47,307 bases of DNA, from the NCBI GenBank assembly GCA_001768975.1, contig MEND01000029.1:1-47307 (forward strand). The letters are read 5' to 3'. The notes beneath the pieces were generated by a model. That model was not told the origin of the DNA. It made no database searches and was given only the letters and a program-made list of their open reading frames with translations. This DNA comes from Bacteroidetes bacterium GWA2_31_9 (GTDB lineage: Bacteria > Bacteroidota > Bacteroidia > Bacteroidales > GWF2-33-38). How positions within the stretch are numbered: the first letter of the stretch is position 1; each line of letters starts with the position of its first letter. The position numbers were made by a program, and so were the translations under genes. Of this stretch, positions 6,501 to 47,307 are shown piece after piece.

Positions 6501-8756
6501 ATGATAAAGATTTATCTTTTAATTACTTTAGTTGCTATTTCAGCTAATCTTTTTTCTCAAAACCTACCTGATTCACTCGATGAATTATCAACTTTCACAA
6601 AATATACAGCTGCCGAAAGTTTCCTCGACGACGAAAACTATGGTGCAGCCCTACCTATTTATTTAGACTTAATATCAAGAGATCCAAATAATGCTAATTT
6701 TAATTTTAAAGTAGGCTTTTGCTATTTAAACACACATCTCGAAAAAGAAAAGTCGGTTTCATTTCTCGAAAAGGCAGTAGCAAATTATTCAGATAATTAT
6801 GATGCTGAGGCTTATACCGAAAAGTATGCTCCCATTGAGTCGTGGTACTTTTTAGGAAATGCTTATCTTTTAAATTATAAATTTGACGATGCACTGGCTG
6901 TTTTAAATAAATTACTTACAATAATTCCAGCTTCAGATTCTAGTTTTATTAAGGAAATTAAACATACAATCAGCTATTGCCAAAATGGAAAGGAACTTGT
7001 AAAAAAACCTATTGATATTATAGTTACAAATTTAGGAGATAGCATAAACTCTGAATACTCTGAACATAGTCCTGTTTTTACCGCAGATGAATCAGTATTA
7101 ATTTTTACTTCAAAAAGAGTCGGAAGTACTGGCGAAAAGTTAACTCCTGATGGACAATATTACGAAGACATATATATATCAAATAAAATAGATGGAAAAT
7201 GGTCTTCTCCAAAAGGTATTGGAAATAGCATTAATACAGATAAACATGAAGCATCAATCGGGCTTTCTGTAGATGGTCAACAACTACTAATTTATAGAGA
7301 TGATAACCAAGATGGAAATATTTACATTAGTACTCTTAATGGTGATATATGGGGAGAACCCGAAAAGCTTGGCTCAACTGTAAATACAAAATATCGAGAG
7401 TCTCATGCTTCTCTTTCAGCAGACGGAAAATCTCTATATTTAGCTAGTGCCCGACCTGGAGGATATGGAGGAATGGATATTTATGTTGTTAAAAAACTTC
7501 CTAATGGAGAATGGAGTGAAGCTCAAAACCTAGGACTAAATGTTAATACTGAATACGATGAGGATGGACCTTTTATTCATCCCGATGGCGTTACGTTATT
7601 CTTTAGCTCTCAAGGACTTTCTAGCATGGGAGGATTTGATATTTTTGCAACTGAAATAGATAACGAAAATAAAAAATGTTCACTAGCTACAAATCTTGGT
7701 TATCCTATTAATACAACCGACGATGATGTATTTTACAATCCTACTCCTGATGGAAAAAGTGCATATTATTCTTCGTTTAGAAATGGAGGAAAAGGTCATG
7801 ATGATCTCTATCTTTTAACATTGCCTGAAGGTGACGAGAAAAACTTAACTGTTATGACAGGATTAGTTACAGTCGATGGTAAACCTGCAAGTGATGCTTC
7901 TCTAACTGTGACAAATACAGAATCTGGCGATATATTTGGTTCTTACATTCCAAATTCAAAATCAGGGAAATATTTGCTTGTATTACCGTCAGACAAAAAA
8001 TATAATATTGAAGTAACTTCAAATAAAGGTGAGGTTAAAAATTTTGACATTACTCCATCTAACGATTCTGCATACTTTAAAATTCATAGATCAGTAAATC
8101 TTGAGCCAGTCAATTTTGGAAAATCAGCTTTTTTTACCACAGTCAATGGAATTGTTAAAGACATTAAAACCTTATTGCCTTTGTCAGTTAAAATTGAAAT
8201 TTTTGATAATAACAATAATCAATTAATCGAAACTATTGAAACAAACCAAAAAGATGGAAAATTTAATACTATTTTGGTTTCAGGAAAAAATTATGGTATT
8301 TCATTAAAAGCTGATGACTATATGTTTTTTTCAGAGAATATTGACCTTACTAAGTCTAAATCGAATAAAGTAATTTCAAAAGAGTTGTTGCTACAAAAAG
8401 CTGAAGTTGAATCAAAAATTATTTTAAAAAATATTTTCTTCGATTTTAATAAATCACATTTACGAAAAGAATCCACTAATGAATTAGAACTTTTAATTGA
8501 TATTCTAAAAAATAAATACCCAACAATGAAAATTGAAATTTCGGGACATACCGATAATAAAGGCTCTTTAAAATCAAATATGAGAATTTCGTCGAACAGA
8601 GCAAAAGCAGTTGTTAATTTTTTGGTTAAACACGGAATTGATGCAAGTCGCCTAAGTTCACAAGGTTATGCGTTTAACGAACCTATTGCAACAAATGATA
8701 CAGAAGAAGGCAGACAAATGAACCGAAGGGTTGAGTTTAAAATTATTAGTAAATAG
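6501..8756 (+). CDS. OmpA-family outer-membrane/periplasmic protein with TPR, TolB-like (PD40) beta-propeller repeats and a C-terminal OmpA peptidoglycan-binding domain
   Basis: It has a signal peptide and TPR-like helices. The repeats SE.SP.F..D...L.F.S.R look PD40-like. The C-terminal motif NIFFDFNKS.L......EL..........KIEISGHTDN.G....N..IS..RAKAV..FL...GI...R......G...P......EEGR..NRRVEF is the OmpA_C pattern. Confidence 0.85.
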   Translation: MIKIYLLITLVAISANLFSQNLPDSLDELSTFTKYTAAESFLDDENYGAALPIYLDLISRDPNNANFNFKVGFCYLNTHLEKEKSVSFLEKAVANYSDNYDAEAYTEKYAPIESWYFLGNAYLLNYKFDDALAVLNKLLTIIPASDSSFIKEIKHTISYCQNGKELVKKPIDIIVTNLGDSINSEYSEHSPVFTADESVLIFTSKRVGSTGEKLTPDGQYYEDIYISNKIDGKWSSPKGIGNSINTDKHEASIGLSVDGQQLLIYRDDNQDGNIYISTLNGDIWGEPEKLGSTVNTKYRESHASLSADGKSLYLASARPGGYGGMDIYVVKKLPNGEWSEAQNLGLNVNTEYDEDGPFIHPDGVTLFFSSQGLSSMGGFDIFATEIDNENKKCSLATNLGYPINTTDDDVFYNPTPDGKSAYYSSFRNGGKGHDDLYLLTLPEGDEKNLTVMTGLVTVDGKPASDASLTVTNTESGDIFGSYIPNSKSGKYLLVLPSDKKYNIEVTSNKGEVKNFDITPSNDSAYFKIHRSVNLEPVNFGKSAFFTTVNGIVKDIKTLLPLSVKIEIFDNNNNQLIETIETNQKDGKFNTILVSGKNYGISLKADDYMFFSENIDLTKSKSNKVISKELLLQKAEVESKIILKNIFFDFNKSHLRKESTNELELLIDILKNKYPTMKIEISGHTDNKGSLKSNMRISSNRAKAVVNFLVKHGIDASRLSSQGYAFNEPIATNDTEEGRQMNRRVEFKIISK

Positions 8757-8903
8757 TGTCTCTTAGAAAACTCCAATAATTTCGTTACTCTGGTTTTGAA
8801 AACAGTTGTTTCGACAAAGCTCAACACATCGCATTTACATTCGTAAACTCCTTATTTTCAAAACTGCGAAAGCCTCATTCTTGAAGTTTTCTAAAGAAAC
8901 ACT
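8755..8903. repeat. Inverted-repeat (MITE/REP-like) element abutting the OmpA-family stop codon
   Basis: The left arm agtgtctcttagaaaactccaataat and the reverse complement of the right arm (agtgtttctttagaaaacttcaagaat) match at most positions. There is a nested inverted repeat gttttgaaaac / ttttcaaaac. A shorter copy lies at 43651-43693 and a fragment near 23295-23312. Confidence 0.55.
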
Positions 8904-36291: not shown

Positions 36292-36951
36292 ATGCAAAAA
36301 ATCAAAATTCTATTAGCCGACGACCATTTTATAATAACAGATGGTATAATTGCAATGCTATCTCAACACAAAGAATATGTGATTGTAGGAGAAGCTCGTG
36401 ATGGTGAGGAAACTTTAACGAAAGTAAAAGAATTAGCACCCGATATTTTAATAGTGGATATTTCAATGCCAAAAATAAATGGAATTGATGTAGTAAAAAA
36501 AATAAGAGAAAAGGACTCTACAATTAAAATACTTGCACTTACTCAACACGATAAAAGCGAATATATTATGCAAATGCTTAAAGCCGGAGCCGATGGATAT
36601 TTGCTAAAAAATTCAAATAAAGACGAATTAATTACTGCCTTAAAAGCTATTTCAGAAGGAAATAAATATTTTGGAAAAAAAATCTCCGATATTATTTTAA
36701 ACAATTATGTATCACAGTCTGATTTTAAGGATGAAAAGTCGGATAAAACAGAGATTCTTTTAACAAAAAGGGAAATTGAAATTATTAAACTCATAGTTAA
36801 AGATAAAAGTAATCAGGAAATTGCCGATAATTTGAATATAAGCCTCCGAACTGTCGAAACACATCGCAGAAATATTATGCAAAAACTTAATGTCAAAACT
36901 GTTGTAGCTCTTGTCAGATATGCTTTGAATAATAATATTACATCTCTTTAA
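36292..36951 (+). CDS. NarL/FixJ (LuxR-type HTH) family response regulator
   Basis: REC has LLADDH, PDILIVDISMPKINGI, ALTQH and GYLLK. The C-terminal GerE/LuxR HTH is LTKREIEIIKLIVKDKSNQEIADNLNISLRTVETHRRNIMQKL. The ATG immediately follows the kinase stop. Confidence 0.9.
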   Translation: MQKIKILLADDHFIITDGIIAMLSQHKEYVIVGEARDGEETLTKVKELAPDILIVDISMPKINGIDVVKKIREKDSTIKILALTQHDKSEYIMQMLKAGADGYLLKNSNKDELITALKAISEGNKYFGKKISDIILNNYVSQSDFKDEKSDKTEILLTKREIEIIKLIVKDKSNQEIADNLNISLRTVETHRRNIMQKLNVKTVVALVRYALNNNITSL

Positions 36952-37358: not shown

Positions 37359-37390
37359 ACGTACTGTATGGTATCAGACATACCAGCTAC
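37359..37390 (+). promoter_or_regulatory. Operator copy 1: ACGTACTGTATGGTAT-CAGAC-ATACCAGCTAC (TGGTA-N7-TACCA), upstream of the EB_dh-like gene
   Basis: The palindrome centre is at 37377, 43 bp upstream of an exact -7 box TAATTTTG (37420-37427). This is one of five related sites. Confidence 0.6.
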
Positions 37391-38866: not shown

Positions 38867-39073
38867 ATGACTCAGACATTTTTAACAAAACGAGAACTTG
38901 AAATTGTGAAATTAATAGTTAAAGATAAAAGCAATCAGGAAATTGCCGATAACTTAAATATTAGCCTCCGAACAGTCGAAACACACCGCAGAAATATTAT
39001 GCAAAAGCTTAATGTCAAAACCGTTGTAGCCCTTGTAAGATATGCTTTGAATAAAAATATCGCCTCTCTTTAA
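38867..39073 (+). CDS. Stand-alone LuxR/GerE-type HTH protein (68 aa), a partial duplicate of the regulator at 36292-36951
   Basis: The protein LTKRELEIVKLIVKDKSNQEIADNLNISLRTVETHRRNIMQKLNVKTVVALVRYALNKNIASL differs from the C-terminus of the RR at only about 5 positions. High nucleotide similarity extends over about 190 bp. It has no receiver domain. The ATG starts about 9 nt after the terminator T-run. Confidence 0.65.
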   Translation: MTQTFLTKRELEIVKLIVKDKSNQEIADNLNISLRTVETHRRNIMQKLNVKTVVALVRYALNKNIASL

Positions 39074-43710: not shown

Positions 43711-46602
43711 ATGAATATCATTAATAAAATTTGGAGTGTTCTATATAAAGACCTACCAGTTCATGTTAAGTTTTATATATCATTTTTTTGGATTTTACTA
43801 TTTATAGCAATATCATTTACAAGCGTTTATATCCACACAAACAATTCTGCTAAAAATAATAAAATACTTGATTATTCTAATTTAGCATTATCCAAAAGTC
43901 AAAAATTATTTTCGCTTACATCATTAGCTATAAATGAAGATTTATCAGTTAGTAGTCCTGCAAAACAAAATTTAAACCATGAATTGATTGAAATAAATAC
44001 CATTTATAATAATCTGAAATATGGCGGAATTATTTTCAATTCCGATAACTCTCAAACATATATTAAAGCTATTAAAGACGAAAAAACTCTTGTAAAATTG
44101 AACGAAGTTGAAAAGATTTTCAATGAGCAAAAAAAACTATTTTCAGTAATTGTTAAAGAAACAACATTTTTAAACGAATTAAATATTAAGCCATACACAA
44201 TTCTTGATAGCACTTCAACTTCACAGAATCTAAACGTTATTACTTTAATGAATCCAATAGTTAAATCTGCAATTAAAGAAATAAATTCTTATGCTATTGA
44301 AAATTCATTAATTACAAATAATGAACAACTATGCGAAATGATTAAACAATATAATACTGCAAATGAGAATATATTTCTGTCACTTTTTATTTTAATTAAT
44401 ATTATTGCATTAATAATCATATTATTTAACTTTTTTATTCTTCAAATATTCATTGTAAGTCCAATTAACAAAATTGCTAAAGCATCTGTTGAAATTGCAA
44501 AAGGAGATTTAAAAACTAAACTTTCGCACAAAATAAATGACAATCTTGGACTTATTGTTTCGTCAATTAAATCATTAATTGAAAATTTAAAAAATGCTTC
44601 AGAATTTACAATTAAAATTGGACAAGGAAATTATGATGCAAACCTAGAAGTAATAAAAGATGGAAATATTGACGAAAAAGACAATTTGAATGTTGCGTTA
44701 ATGAACATGCGCGATAAACTTAAAAGCGTTGCAGAAGAAGAAAAACGAAGAAATTGGGCAACATCTGGTTTTGCGATTTTTGGAGAAATTCTTCGCCAAG
44801 ATAACGATAACATCGAAAAGCTATCATACAACATTATTAAAAATCTTGTAAAATTCATGGATATTAATCAAGCAGGGATGTTTTTATTAAACGAGTCTGA
44901 AGATAACAAATTCCTTGAAATGACTGCTTGCCATGCCTATGACAGAAAGAAATTTTCAGACCGAAAAGTAAATATTGGAGAAGGATTTATTGGCACATGC
45001 TTTATCGAAAAAGAAACAATTTATGTAACTGATGTTCCTACTGATTATATTAATATTACATCAGGTTTAGGAGATGCCCCTCCACGTAGCATTCTAATAG
45101 TTCCAATGAAACTAAACGATGTTGTGTATGGTATTTTAGAATTAGCATCATTTACTAGCTTTGAAAAATATCAAATTGAATTTGTTGAAAAAGTTGGAGA
45201 AAGCGTTGCATCAACTATTTCGACAGTAAAAATCAACATCCAAACTTCTAAGCTTCTAACTAAATCGCAACAACAAACCGAAATTCTATTGCAACAAGAA
45301 GAAGAAATGCGTCAAAATCTTGAAGAATTACATTCAACTCAAGATGAAATTTTAAAACGCGAATCAGAAATCACGGGCATTGTAAATGCAATAGATAACA
45401 CAATTGCAAAAGCCGAACTTCAATTAAATGGAGTAATTATTAATGTAAATGCTAAGTTTAATAAAGTTTTTGAAGTAGAAAAAACAAATCTTACAAACCA
45501 TAATATTAAAAAATTCATTGATGATAATCAATTCGATATTTTTGATGAAAGCTTCGAAATAGTCTCATCTGGTGAAAGTTCCGATTTTACTATAAAAGGA
45601 CATACTGCAAAAAATACAAAAAAATGGCTACTTTGTTCTGTTACACCTGTTTTTGATTCAAATAAACAAATTGCTAAAGTACTGTTTATGGCAATTGACG
45701 TAACTCAACAAAAAGAACTTGAATCGGAATTAGCTCAAAAAGACGAGCTTCAAAAGCAAGAAATTGAAAAACTAATTCACGAAAACAACCAAAAACTTGA
45801 AGAAATAATTGCAACTCAAGAAGAATCAACAAAGCGAGAAACTGAGCTTTCTGCAATTATAAATGGAATAAACGAATCTTTAGGTTCTTATGAATTTGAT
45901 GAAAAAGGAATAGTACTCAATGTAAACAGAATGTTTCTTGATATAACTGGGTTAAAAGAAAATGAGATAATTGGACAATCAATTATTGACTTTATGCCTG
46001 TTGAAAAACAAAAGTTAATGTACGACTTATTACCTAAGCTTTTTAAAGGCGACAAACACTCTGGTCCACATCAATTTATATTTAAAGGAGTTGAAAAATG
46101 GTGTTTCGAAACCTATACCCCTGTAAAATCTTCTAATGGTAATTTTAATAAAATATTAGTTCTTGCCAACGAAATTACTCAAGTTGTTATGCAAGATCGC
46201 AAAATGAAGACACAATCCGATGAATTAATGGCACAACAAGAAGAGTTGCGTCAGAATATGGAAGAAATGCAAACACTTCAGGAAGATACTTTAAAGAGAA
46301 TGGAAGAAGCTGAAAATTTAAAAAATCAATTAGCAGAAAAAGACAAACTTCAAAGTATCGAAATTGAAAAACTAACTAATGAAAATAATCAGAAACTTCA
46401 AGAATTAATAAAAATTCAGGAAAAAATTCTAAAAGATGCAGAAGAGCAAAGAACTAAAGATGAACTAATCGTAAAACAAGCAAAAGAAGAAGCACAAATT
46501 CAAATTCTAAATATGGAAGAAGATTTCTTTATGAAGCAAAAAGAATTGAAAAAGAAATTAAAAGCAGCAACTTTAGAATTAGAAGCTACAAAAAATAATT
46601 AA
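43711..46602 (+). CDS. Membrane sensor protein: periplasmic helical (PilJ/NarX-like) domain, HAMP, GAF, two PAS-like modules separated by repeated coiled coils; no recognisable output domain
   Basis: Two TM helices lie at about aa 20-42 and 220-245. HAMP is SPINKIAKASVEIAKGDLKTKL...DNLGLIVSSIKSLIENL. GAF is ...GEGFIGTCFIEKETIYVTDVP...SILIVPMKLNDVVYGILELASF. Three coiled-coil heptad blocks of the QQEE.RQN.EE....Q type are present. The sequence ends in a Lys/Glu coiled coil with no H-box, GGDEF, MCP signalling or HTH motif visible. Confidence 0.75.
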   Translation: MNIINKIWSVLYKDLPVHVKFYISFFWILLFIAISFTSVYIHTNNSAKNNKILDYSNLALSKSQKLFSLTSLAINEDLSVSSPAKQNLNHELIEINTIYNNLKYGGIIFNSDNSQTYIKAIKDEKTLVKLNEVEKIFNEQKKLFSVIVKETTFLNELNIKPYTILDSTSTSQNLNVITLMNPIVKSAIKEINSYAIENSLITNNEQLCEMIKQYNTANENIFLSLFILINIIALIIILFNFFILQIFIVSPINKIAKASVEIAKGDLKTKLSHKINDNLGLIVSSIKSLIENLKNASEFTIKIGQGNYDANLEVIKDGNIDEKDNLNVALMNMRDKLKSVAEEEKRRNWATSGFAIFGEILRQDNDNIEKLSYNIIKNLVKFMDINQAGMFLLNESEDNKFLEMTACHAYDRKKFSDRKVNIGEGFIGTCFIEKETIYVTDVPTDYINITSGLGDAPPRSILIVPMKLNDVVYGILELASFTSFEKYQIEFVEKVGESVASTISTVKINIQTSKLLTKSQQQTEILLQQEEEMRQNLEELHSTQDEILKRESEITGIVNAIDNTIAKAELQLNGVIINVNAKFNKVFEVEKTNLTNHNIKKFIDDNQFDIFDESFEIVSSGESSDFTIKGHTAKNTKKWLLCSVTPVFDSNKQIAKVLFMAIDVTQQKELESELAQKDELQKQEIEKLIHENNQKLEEIIATQEESTKRETELSAIINGINESLGSYEFDEKGIVLNVNRMFLDITGLKENEIIGQSIIDFMPVEKQKLMYDLLPKLFKGDKHSGPHQFIFKGVEKWCFETYTPVKSSNGNFNKILVLANEITQVVMQDRKMKTQSDELMAQQEELRQNMEEMQTLQEDTLKRMEEAENLKNQLAEKDKLQSIEIEKLTNENNQKLQELIKIQEKILKDAEEQRTKDELIVKQAKEEAQIQILNMEEDFFMKQKELKKKLKAATLELEATKNN

Positions 46603-46642
46603 TTAATTGAGTATGTATGATATTGAAGTTAAATTAAGATTT

Positions 46643-46740
46643 ATAGGTATAAAGGAACATAGGTATAAAGGTATTAAAATGATAATCATTTTACCATTTA
46701 GTATTTCCTGATTTCCTTATACCATATATCCTCTATACCT
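46643..46740 (+). promoter_or_regulatory. Cluster of three GGTAT and three TACC(A/T) half-sites in inverted arrangement upstream of the two-CW gene
   Basis: The sequence reads ataGGTATaaaggaacataGGTATaaaGGTATtaaaatgataatcatttTACCAtttagtatttcctgatttccttaTACCAtatatcctctaTACCt. The half-sites resemble those of the 37-42 kb operators. Confidence 0.35.
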
Positions 46741-46808
46741 TTTTATTAAAATACATCTCTCGTATATTTTCATTGAATAGATTAACAATAAACAAAAAGT
46801 TAAATAAT

Positions 46809-47108
46809 ATGGAAAAACAAAACTGTTGGGAATACAAAAATTGTGGACGTGAACAAGGCGGTGCAAAAGTAGCCGAACTAGGTGTTTGCCCTGCTTCAAC
46901 AGAAACAAAAGCTAATGGTATTAATAATGGCATAAATGCTGGCAGAGCATGTTGGGCAGTAGCAGGTACATTATGTGGAGGAACAGTGCAGGGCGAATAT
47001 GCTTCAAAAATGCAAAATTGCTTGGCTTGCGATTTTTACACAGTAGTTCAGGATGAGGAAGATGATGATTATATGCTCACAAAAGAGATATTGAAAAAAT
47101 TGTCTTAA
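46809..47108 (+). CDS. Small Cys-rich protein with two Cys-Trp motifs ('two-CW domain'-like) and an acidic C-terminal tail
   Basis: MEKQNCWEYKNCGREQGG...GVCPA...GRACWAVAGTLCGG...QNCLACDFY has 7 Cys and two CW dipeptides in the pattern I remember for the two-CW domain. I prefer ATG 46809 to the TTG at 46773 in the ORF track. Confidence 0.65.
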   Translation: MEKQNCWEYKNCGREQGGAKVAELGVCPASTETKANGINNGINAGRACWAVAGTLCGGTVQGEYASKMQNCLACDFYTVVQDEEDDDYMLTKEILKKLS

Positions 47109-47307
47109 TTCATTGCCAATTTATTTAAATCTGTGAAATCTCCCGATGAAAAATTGATACAAGTCGGATTAATAAAATCAAAACCATAAACTATTCAATA
47201 CCAGATAAATAAAAATTAAAAATGGAATTATATATCAATGTCGTTTAGTTAAGCAAAAGTAGATAAAATATTGAAAATTAATAAAAAAAGAGTTCTTTGA
47301 AATTTTG

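What the first reader, a model, noticed from the sequence alone, without database searches (positions are those of the whole stretch)
46643..47108. Stand-alone 'two-CW'-like Cys-rich protein behind an array of GGTAT/TACC half-sites
Seen: the 99-aa product has the spacing NCWEYKNCGRE...CPA...ACWAVAGTLCGG...NCLACDFY, with seven Cys and two Cys-Trp pairs, followed by an acidic tail. This suggests a metal or Fe-S binding, possibly redox-sensing, module. From memory it matches a domain catalogued as the 'two-CW domain', whose function is unknown. Its upstream region contains three GGTAT and three TACC(A/T) half-sites in inverted order. These are the same half-site core as the operators of the 37-42 kb regulon, so it might be co-regulated. 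The window ends 200 bp downstream, so partners such as maturases or kinases may be cut off.
Basis: partly seen in the sequence, partly recalled or inferred. Interest (0 to 1): 0.6.

Follow-up and report, generated by a model that had tools for sequence, protein, structure and literature searches.

The report
Stand-alone two-CW cysteine-rich signalling protein
This small gene really encodes a free-standing copy of the catalogued but never-studied seven-cysteine "two-CW" domain, probably a metal-binding sensor module that works with the sensor protein encoded just upstream, while the repeats in front of it are not the operator of the nearby regulon.

Summary
The protein observation is confirmed. 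Window 46809..47108 (+) encodes a 99-aa protein matching NCBIfam NF045718 (two-CW domain) over the full model, at 112 bits against a cut-off of 35. It has seven Cys and two Cys-Trp pairs. The family is large (1874 clusters at 50% identity), spans bacteria and archaea, is mostly from uncultured anaerobes, and is absent from 14 model genomes. It has no Pfam model, no PDB relative by sequence or fold (confident AF2 model, pLDDT 88.6) and no literature in the library searched.

Elsewhere the domain is fused to histidine kinases, receivers, PAS, GGDEF, MCP, Ser/Thr kinase, PP2C, STAS, PilZ, CBS, cyclase and rubrerythrin. This is the profile of a promiscuous signalling module.

Here it follows an output-less TM-HAMP-GAF-PAS-PAS protein. 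That gene pair recurs in a paralogous locus of the same genome, where a kinase and receiver follow it, and in two other Bacteroidota.

The GGTAT/TACC cluster is real and is the densest in the window. It lacks the tight palindrome and fixed promoter distance of the 37-42 kb operators, is absent from the ortholog, and resembles dispersed intergenic arrays elsewhere in the genome. Co-regulation is not supported.

The contig ends in an IS end. The scan has noted this family many times before.

The parts
46809..47108 (+). Gene for the stand-alone two-CW domain protein, 99 aa plus stop
   Evidence: ORF. NF045718 at 112.4 bits, full model. 207 close homologues of about 100 aa. The N-terminus MxKxNCWE is conserved. 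AF2 model pLDDT 88.6, pTM 0.81.
43711..46602 (+). Upstream partner candidate: a membrane-anchored HAMP-GAF-PAS-PAS coiled-coil protein of 963 aa with no output domain
   Evidence: Pfam HAMP, GAF and 2x PAS, with no kinase, cyclase or MCP domain. The same gene pair occurs in the C143 paralog, GWA2_30_7 and GWF2_35_48. The paralogs are 60% identical from residue 227 on, and their N-terminal sensor regions cannot be aligned.
46643..46740 (.). Repeat array. It has a direct repeat ATAGGTATAAAGG x2 spaced 16 bp, and imperfect 24-nt inverted arms (46645-46668 / 46717-46740).
   Evidence: the repeat finder D1 and I1. Densest GGTAT/ATACC cluster in the window. Partly kept in the paralog and absent from the ortholog. 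Similar arrays occur at 12 other places in the genome.
46675..46693 (.). Perfect AT-rich palindrome TAAAATGAT-A-ATCATTTTA at the centre of the array. It is a possible operator for an unknown regulator.
   Evidence: the repeat finder I11. It is one of about 6 distinct perfect palindromes with arms of 9 nt or more in 47 kb. The core AATGATAATCATT equals the core of the classical Fur box (my own knowledge), but it occurs 5 times in the genome where about 3 are expected, and it is broken in the paralog.
46763..46770 (+). Candidate Bacteroidota -7 promoter box TATATTTT (consensus TAnnTTTG, one mismatch), 39 nt before the ATG
   Evidence: Pattern scan. The corresponding TATGTTTT is kept in the paralog.
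47224..47307 (.). End of a multicopy insertion sequence, which is where the assembly breaks
   Evidence: The same roughly 80 bp lies at the ends of contigs C9, C65, C95, C35, C159 and C91 at 84-100% identity. One internal copy, C258:24829-24908, lies next to a degraded transposase-like ORF.

Best explanation
The gene encodes a genuine free-standing member of the two-CW domain family (NCBIfam NF045718). It is a compact globular module of about 90 residues, built around six invariant cysteines plus a seventh that is nearly invariant. Its fold resembles nothing solved.

I infer that the cysteines hold a metal centre, either an Fe-S cluster or zinc, and that the module acts as a cytoplasmic redox or metal-responsive signalling unit. 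Here I infer that it acts in trans with the protein encoded immediately upstream. That protein is a membrane HAMP-GAF-PAS-PAS transducer that ends in coiled coils and has no output domain, so the two genes would form a split signalling protein feeding a kinase/receiver pair like the one seen in the paralogous locus.

The GGTAT/TACC array in front of the gene is a lineage-specific intergenic repeat of a type scattered through this genome. It may carry a promoter-proximal site for an unknown regulator, but it is not the operator of the neighbouring LuxR/NarL-type response regulator.

Shown: family membership, conservation, fusion partners, the conserved gene pair, and the lack of the operator architecture. 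Inferred: metal binding, sensing, and the physical partnership.
For: Family and conservation:
- NF045718 scores 112 bits against a cut-off of 35, over the full model.
- C6, W7, C12, R14, C27, R46, C48, W49, C71 and C74 are invariant in 103 homologues. C56 is replaced in about 4% of 275 domains.
- There are 1874 representative clusters, across many bacterial and archaeal phyla, mostly anaerobe MAGs.
- The AF2 model is confident, pLDDT 88.6.
- There is no PDB or viral fold match with E below 4 and no PDB sequence match.

Fusions: HATPase_c in 13 of 45 multidomain members, plus PAS, HisKA, Response_reg, Pkinase, cNMP_binding, GGDEF, MCPsignal, STAS, GAF, PP2C, PilZ, CBS, Usp, cyclase and rubrerythrin.

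Neighbours of 80 stand-alone genes: signalling domains are the commonest class and there is no conserved maturase.

Gene pair: it is kept in the window, in the C143 paralog (followed there by a PAS-GAF-HisKA-HATPase kinase and a receiver), in GWA2_30_7, and in GWF2_35_48, where the order is CheB, GAF-PAS, two-CW, receiver, receiver-kinase.

Operator test. Array conservation and dispersal.
Against: - No cofactor evidence of any kind exists. I could not inspect cysteine geometry because model coordinates are not exposed.
- The domain sits C-terminal to receiver, GGDEF, kinase and MCP modules as well as N-terminal, so it may be a docking or output module rather than an input.
- The pairing with a GAF-PAS protein is confined to one Bacteroidota sublineage. 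Five other Bacteroidota loci and most of the 80 loci lack it.
- The 206-bp spacer with a likely own promoter means co-transcription is not shown.
- Some hosts are aerobes, such as Nitrospira and Terriglobales, so the family is not strictly tied to anaerobes.
Confidence: 0.55

Rival explanations
1. The gene belongs to the 37-42 kb regulon. The LuxR/NarL-type response regulator (36292..36951) binds the GGTAT/TACC half-sites and controls the two-CW gene.
For: The 5-mer core is the same. One minus-strand half-site, ATATGGTATA at 46719-46728, also shares the extended TATGGTAT flank and lies about 40 bp upstream of the candidate -7 box.
Against: All five regulon operators are 14-15 bp palindromes, GGTAT-N4/5-(A)TACC, centred 41.5-43 bp from a -7-like box. 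The two-CW upstream region has no such palindrome; the nearest opposed half-sites are 17 bp apart. The half-sites are mostly lost in the paralog although the surrounding DNA is 81-90% identical, and they are absent from the ortholog. Similar arrays lie beside unrelated genes.
Confidence: 0.08
2. The two-CW domain is a structural zinc-stabilised docking or adaptor module. It mediates protein-protein contacts in signalling complexes and senses nothing itself.
For: The domain occurs at both N- and C-termini and in tandem. It sits after receiver, GGDEF, kinase and MCP modules, where output or docking domains usually sit. Small Cys-rich folds are often zinc-stabilised (general knowledge). Contexts are variable with no fixed partner.
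Against: Conservation of surface-type residues is very high: 55-65% identity between bacteria and archaea. The family is biased to anaerobes. Fusion to rubrerythrin and neighbouring hemerythrin and Rrf2 genes hint at redox or iron chemistry. None of this is decisive.
Confidence: 0.25
3. The central palindrome TAAAATGATAATCATTTTA is a Fur-type iron box, so the gene is iron-regulated. This would fit an Fe-S protein.
For: It matches the classical E. coli Fur consensus GATAATGATAATCATTATC at 15 of 19 positions (my own knowledge of the consensus; sequence). The genome has one Fur-family gene. The palindrome is perfect, 9+1+9, and lies in a promoter-proximal position.
Against: The 12 specified bases of the core (pattern AATGAT.ATCATT) occur 5 times in this 29% GC genome, where about 3 are expected by composition. 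The other copies are not upstream of recognisable iron-uptake genes. The left half is broken by a deletion in the paralog and the site is absent from the ortholog. The Fur box of this lineage is unknown.
Confidence: 0.1
4. The small Cys-rich product is a precursor of a ribosomally made, radical-SAM-modified peptide, of the SCIFF or ranthipeptide kind.
For: It is small and Cys-rich. 3 of 74 upstream neighbours carry a radical SAM domain. A radical SAM gene lies 12 kb upstream in the window.
Against: The predicted fold is confident and globular. The domain is embedded in large cytoplasmic signalling proteins. No maturase is conserved. The window's radical SAM gene is a YgiQ-type housekeeping family and is not adjacent.
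Confidence: 0.02

Closest known systems
NCBIfam NF045718, 'two-CW domain-containing protein'
   Same: Full-length match well above the curated cut-off. It has both CW dipeptides and the complete invariant cysteine set.
   Different: Nothing differs; it is a plain member. The family itself has only a descriptive name. I found no paper, Pfam model or solved structure for it.
Fe-S cluster sensors of signalling proteins (FNR, NreB, WhiB-like, NsrR/Rrf2), known from the literature
   Same: It is a small cytoplasmic Cys-rich module attached to, or working with, transcription or kinase outputs. It is biased to organisms that avoid oxygen. This is a resemblance in supposed working mode only.
   Different: There is no sequence or fold similarity. 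The cysteine spacing is different: C-x5-C-x14-C-x20-C-x7-C-x14-C-x2-C. It has six to seven ligand candidates rather than three or four. The cofactor is untested.
Split sensors such as CetA/CetB of Campylobacter, where a sensor domain is encoded as a separate small protein next to a transducer
   Same: A small single-domain sensor-like protein is encoded beside a membrane transducer, and the pair is conserved as a unit.
   Different: In CetA/CetB the small protein is a PAS-FAD domain and the transducer has an MCP output. Here the small protein is two-CW and the transducer has no recognisable output at all. No interaction has been shown.
NarL/LuxR-type operators (inverted heptamer sites), as realised in this window at 37370, 39104, 40344, 41856 and 42100
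   Same: The upstream array shares the GGTAT/TACC pentamer core.
   Different: The array has no tight palindrome, no ACGTACTnTAT flank, no fixed 41.5-43 bp distance to the -7 box, and no conservation.

Membership tests
NCBIfam NF045718 two-CW domain | Score above the curated cut-off (35 bits) over the whole 80-position model | tested here: met
   112.4 bits, E 9.4e-33, model positions 1-80 on residues 4-83.
NCBIfam NF045718 two-CW domain | Two Cys-Trp dipeptides and the invariant cysteine set | tested here: met
   C6-W7 and C48-W49 are present. C6, C12, C27, C48, C71 and C74 are invariant and C56 is kept in over 90% of homologues. All seven are present here.
Metal or Fe-S binding sensor domains (functional class) | Bound metal centre whose state changes with the signal | not testable with these tools
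   Only indirect evidence: the invariant Cys, fusions to signalling outputs, and the anaerobe bias.
Known Fe-S sensor families (FNR, WhiB, Rrf2, NreB-PAS) | Sequence or fold homology to those families | tested here: not met
   No Pfam hit apart from an insignificant zinc-finger match at E 0.48. No PDB sequence hit at E up to 10. No Foldseek hit with E below 5.
Operator of the window's LuxR/NarL-type regulon | 14-15 bp palindrome GGTAT-N4/5-(A)TACC | tested here: not met
   Regex scans of the window and genome find the five regulon sites and none in 46603-46808.
Operator of the window's LuxR/NarL-type regulon | Palindrome centre 41.5-43 bp upstream of a -7-like box | tested here: not met
   All five regulon sites obey this. 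At that distance from the candidate box at 46763 there is only a single ATACC half-site.
Operator of the window's LuxR/NarL-type regulon | Conservation of the sites in related loci | tested here: not met
   Only 2 of the 5 GGTAT/ATACC pentamers survive in the paralog, and none are in GWA2_30_7 or GWF2_35_48.
Fur box | 19-bp inverted repeat close to GATAATGATAATCATTATC, enriched before iron genes | tested here: inconclusive
   15 of 19 positions match. However, the core occurs at about chance frequency, is not linked to iron genes, and is not conserved.
RiPP precursor (SCIFF/ranthipeptide type) | Adjacent conserved radical SAM maturase and a short unstructured core peptide | tested here: not met
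   There is no adjacent maturase here. Radical SAM occurs in 3 of 74 upstream neighbours. The fold is confident and the domain is fused into large signalling proteins.

The most novel reading that the evidence does not exclude
The two-CW domain is an undescribed class of metal-cluster sensor, likely an unusual Fe-S centre held by six or seven cysteines, with a new fold. Anaerobic bacteria and archaea would plug it into every kind of signalling output. In this locus the free-standing copy would be the detachable sensor or output partner that completes an otherwise output-less HAMP-GAF-PAS transducer, forming a two-gene split signalling protein that was duplicated as a unit with different extracytoplasmic sensor domains.
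Probability: 0.3. Interest if true: 0.75.

Novelty: new member of a known kind. Interest (0 to 1): 0.35.

Why it matters
The two-CW domain is one of the more widespread signalling modules of anaerobic bacteria and archaea that still has no known ligand, cofactor, structure or publication. This locus adds no new kind of thing. It does offer a simple, testable case: a 99-aa stand-alone protein, conserved next to an output-less transducer and duplicated with it. That suits expression, metal analysis and partner-binding assays. The negative result on the half-site array keeps the neighbouring regulon's boundaries from being drawn too wide.

Tried and rejected
1. Extending the contig. The window is the whole contig, and every public assembly of this locus breaks within about 280 bp downstream. 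The end is a multicopy IS end.
2. Finding the continuation through paralogs of the C143 kinase and receiver, or through the gene downstream in GWA2_30_7. No close copy lies at a contig edge, and the GWA2_30_7 gene has no homologue in this genome.
3. RNA element in the 206-bp spacer. There was no Rfam match at E up to 1. The fold z-score is only -1.8. From reading the aligned sequences, the changes in the paralog do not look compensatory.
4. Sigma-70 promoter and terminator scan. It was uninformative: counts matched the shuffles and no terminator was found.
5. Fold and sequence searches against the PDB and BFVD found nothing.
6. Literature. Three searches found no relevant paper.
7. Conserved partner gene across 80 loci. 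None was found. The GAF-PAS partner is present in only 2 of the 80 loci and in none of five other Bacteroidota loci.
8. Fur-box reading of the central palindrome. It is kept only as a weak lead.
10. Cysteine geometry in the model.

Full report
**What is there**

The window is the complete contig C29 of a 4.96-Mb, 288-contig, 29% GC genome bin. Public copies of the locus come from Rifle groundwater and sediment metagenomes. The closest named relative is Bacteroidetes bacterium GWA2_30_7.

An ATG at 46809 opens a 99-codon frame that ends at 47108. A longer TTG-start version from 46773 is unlikely, because more than 100 homologues start MxKxNCWE.

**Family**

- The protein matches NCBIfam NF045718 (two_CW_domain) over all 80 model positions, at 112.4 bits against a curated cut-off of 35. 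No Pfam family covers it.
- A word-indexed search found 207 proteins of about 100 aa with 55-88% identity.
- A full HMM search of 1.84 billion representatives found 1874 clusters at E up to 1e-3, and 1071 at 1e-10.
- In 103 aligned homologues, C6, W7, C12, R14, G25, C27, G41, G45, R46, C48, W49, C71 and C74 are invariant.
- Over 275 domains, C56 is the only cysteine ever replaced, in about 4%.
- Species-representative genomes carrying close relatives span Anaerolineales, Ignavibacteria, Omnitrophota, Nitrospirota/Thermodesulfovibrionia, Desulfobacterota, Dehalococcoidia, Planctomycetota, Spirochaetes, Acidobacteriota, Methanoregula, Methanospirillum and Asgard archaea. Nearly all are uncultured.
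- In the window's own phylum, only 5 of 300 other sampled genomes have it. None of 14 model genomes does.

**Structure**

AlphaFold2 with the 103-sequence alignment gives a confident model, with mean pLDDT 88.6 and pTM 0.81. It consists of short helices, a hairpin, and two longer C-terminal helices. Foldseek finds nothing in the PDB or BFVD with E below 4. A profile search of all PDB sequences finds nothing at E up to 10. Three literature searches found no paper on the domain.

**What the domain does elsewhere**

Forty-five multidomain members were scanned against Pfam. Their partner domains are:

- HATPase_c (13 members), PAS, HisKA and Response_reg;
- Pkinase with cNMP_binding and PP2C;
- GGDEF, MCPsignal, STAS and GAF;
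- PilZ, CBS, Usp, an adenylate/guanylate cyclase and rubrerythrin.

The domain is usually N-terminal to PAS or kinase modules. It also occurs after receiver, GGDEF, kinase and MCP modules, and in tandem. This is the profile of a promiscuous small signalling module such as PAS, GAF or CBS.

Among the immediate neighbours of 80 stand-alone genes there is no fixed partner. PAS, GAF, HAMP, receiver and kinase domains are the commonest, at about 10% each. In Nitrospirota the gene sits between selB and selA. Radical SAM neighbours are rare, 3 of 74.

**This locus**

The gene follows, after 206 bp on the same strand, a 963-aa protein with a membrane-anchored N-terminal region, HAMP, GAF, two PAS domains and long coiled coils. 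That protein has no output domain.

The pair is duplicated in the same genome, on contig C143, with a fuller copy in ENA scaffold L013. The order there is:

1. a Crp-like regulator, divergent;
2. a 919-aa HAMP-GAF-PAS protein;
3. an 85%-identical two-CW protein;
4. a 794-aa PAS-GAF-HisKA-HATPase kinase;
5. a 133-aa receiver;
6. a C-terminal half of a third two-CW gene.

The two large proteins are 60% identical from residue 227 to the end. Their N-terminal sensor regions cannot be aligned, and the window's copy has one extra 46-residue coiled-coil unit.

The same pair occurs in GWA2_30_7. It also occurs at 38% and 58% identity in Bacteroidetes bacterium GWF2_35_48, where the order is CheB, GAF-PAS, two-CW, receiver, receiver-kinase. 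Five other Bacteroidota loci with a two-CW gene lack this partner.

The pairing is therefore a conserved cassette of one sublineage, not a family-wide rule.

**Mechanism**

I infer that the cysteines bind a metal centre, and that the small protein works in trans with the output-less transducer to pass a cytoplasmic redox or metal signal to a kinase/receiver pair. Only the anatomy is shown. Neither the cofactor nor the interaction is tested. A purely structural zinc docking module remains a serious rival.

**The upstream array**

The cluster is the densest in the window. It consists of:

- ATAGGTATAAAGG twice at 16-bp spacing;
- 24-nt arms that are 75% complementary;
- a central perfect palindrome, TAAAATGAT-A-ATCATTTTA.

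The operators of the 37-42 kb regulon are different objects. They are five 14-15 bp palindromes, GGTAT-N4/5-(A)TACC, mostly preceded by ACGTACTnTAT. Each is centred 41.5-43 bp upstream of a TAnnTTTG-like box. No such palindrome lies upstream of the two-CW gene. At the equivalent distance from its candidate -7 box (TATATTTT, 46763) there is only a single half-site.

Three further observations argue against a shared operator:

- In the paralog, only two of the five GGTAT/ATACC pentamers survive, although the surrounding DNA is 81-90% identical.
- In GWA2_30_7 the spacer is unrelated and carries a different repeat. GWF2_35_48 has no such array.
- Genome-wide there are 13 clusters of four or more GGTAT/ATACC pentamers within 100 bp. 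The ten I checked are all intergenic. Several are inverted arrays, and they lie beside unrelated genes such as rnf, pst, nuo and cas1-cas2. Close copies of the 16-bp-spaced doublet lie on C84 and C165.

Co-regulation by the LuxR-type regulator is therefore not supported.

The central palindrome matches the classical Fur box at 15 of 19 positions, which would suit an iron protein. However, the core occurs at roughly chance frequency, the other copies are not before iron genes, and the site is broken in the paralog. I keep it as a weak lead. There is no Rfam match, and the RNA fold is unremarkable.

**The downstream end**

The last roughly 80 bp (47224-47307) recur at the ends of at least six other contigs, and once internally next to a degraded transposase-like ORF. 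The assembly therefore breaks in an IS.

**Comparison and verdict**

- The protein is a plain member of a catalogued but uncharacterised family.
- The family is of real interest: it has a new fold, is widespread in anaerobes, and has no known cofactor.
- Earlier notes of this scan report the same family in many other genomes, so this is not a first sighting.
- What this window adds is a clean split-pair context and a negative result on the proposed operator.

Noticed in passing
window 47224-47307; also G000 C9:17-100, C65:24-105, C35:15704-15785, C159:5475-5540, C258:24829-24908: The contig ends in the terminal roughly 80 bp of a multicopy insertion sequence, which breaks the assembly at many contig ends. 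The one internal copy sits next to a degraded transposase-like ORF.
   Followed up: partly
G000 C143:339-515 (minus strand) = L013:11992-12156: A third two-CW copy, holding only the C-terminal half (residues 45-99, 87% identical), lies directly after the receiver gene of the paralogous cassette. It is a relic of a partial duplication or rearrangement.
   Followed up: partly
G000 C24:9143-9409, C160:2100-2305, C254:23036-23195, C240:23899-24071, C262:3586-3641, C228:1923-2079, C155:97447-97563: A dispersed class of intergenic arrays of GGTAT(A)(A/G)GG-type short repeats. They are often forward arrays facing reverse arrays across a 60-100 bp core. One lies between cas1 and cas2. Their nature is unknown; they could be MITE-like, REP-like or protein-binding.
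   Followed up: partly
window 43711-46602 versus L013:5038-7794: The two paralogous output-less HAMP-GAF-PAS proteins share 60% identity from the second membrane helix onward, but their extracytoplasmic N-terminal regions are unrelated. The window copy also carries one extra 46-residue coiled-coil unit.
   Followed up: partly
L016:7764-8000 and 8300-8830 (Bacteroidetes bacterium GWA2_30_7): In the ortholog, the spacer before the two-CW gene carries a different repeat (CTATGTGC, several copies) and a GC-rich hairpin. The DNA after the gene holds an ~85-bp palindromic repeat that recurs on G000 contigs C15, C166 and C190.
   Followed up: no
loci L066, L074, L091, L098 and other Nitrospirota/Thermodesulfovibrionia loci: In this lineage the stand-alone two-CW gene sits between selB (selenocysteine elongation factor) and selA (selenocysteine synthase). 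This is a lineage-specific synteny of unknown meaning.
   Followed up: no
P0121, P0122, P0123; L050:6001-6644; L059:1032-1565: Tandem two-CW arrangements occur, both as two domains in one protein and as two adjacent genes.
   Followed up: no
window 38867-39073: A 68-aa GerE/LuxR HTH-only ORF lies inside the 37-42 kb regulon.
   Followed up: no
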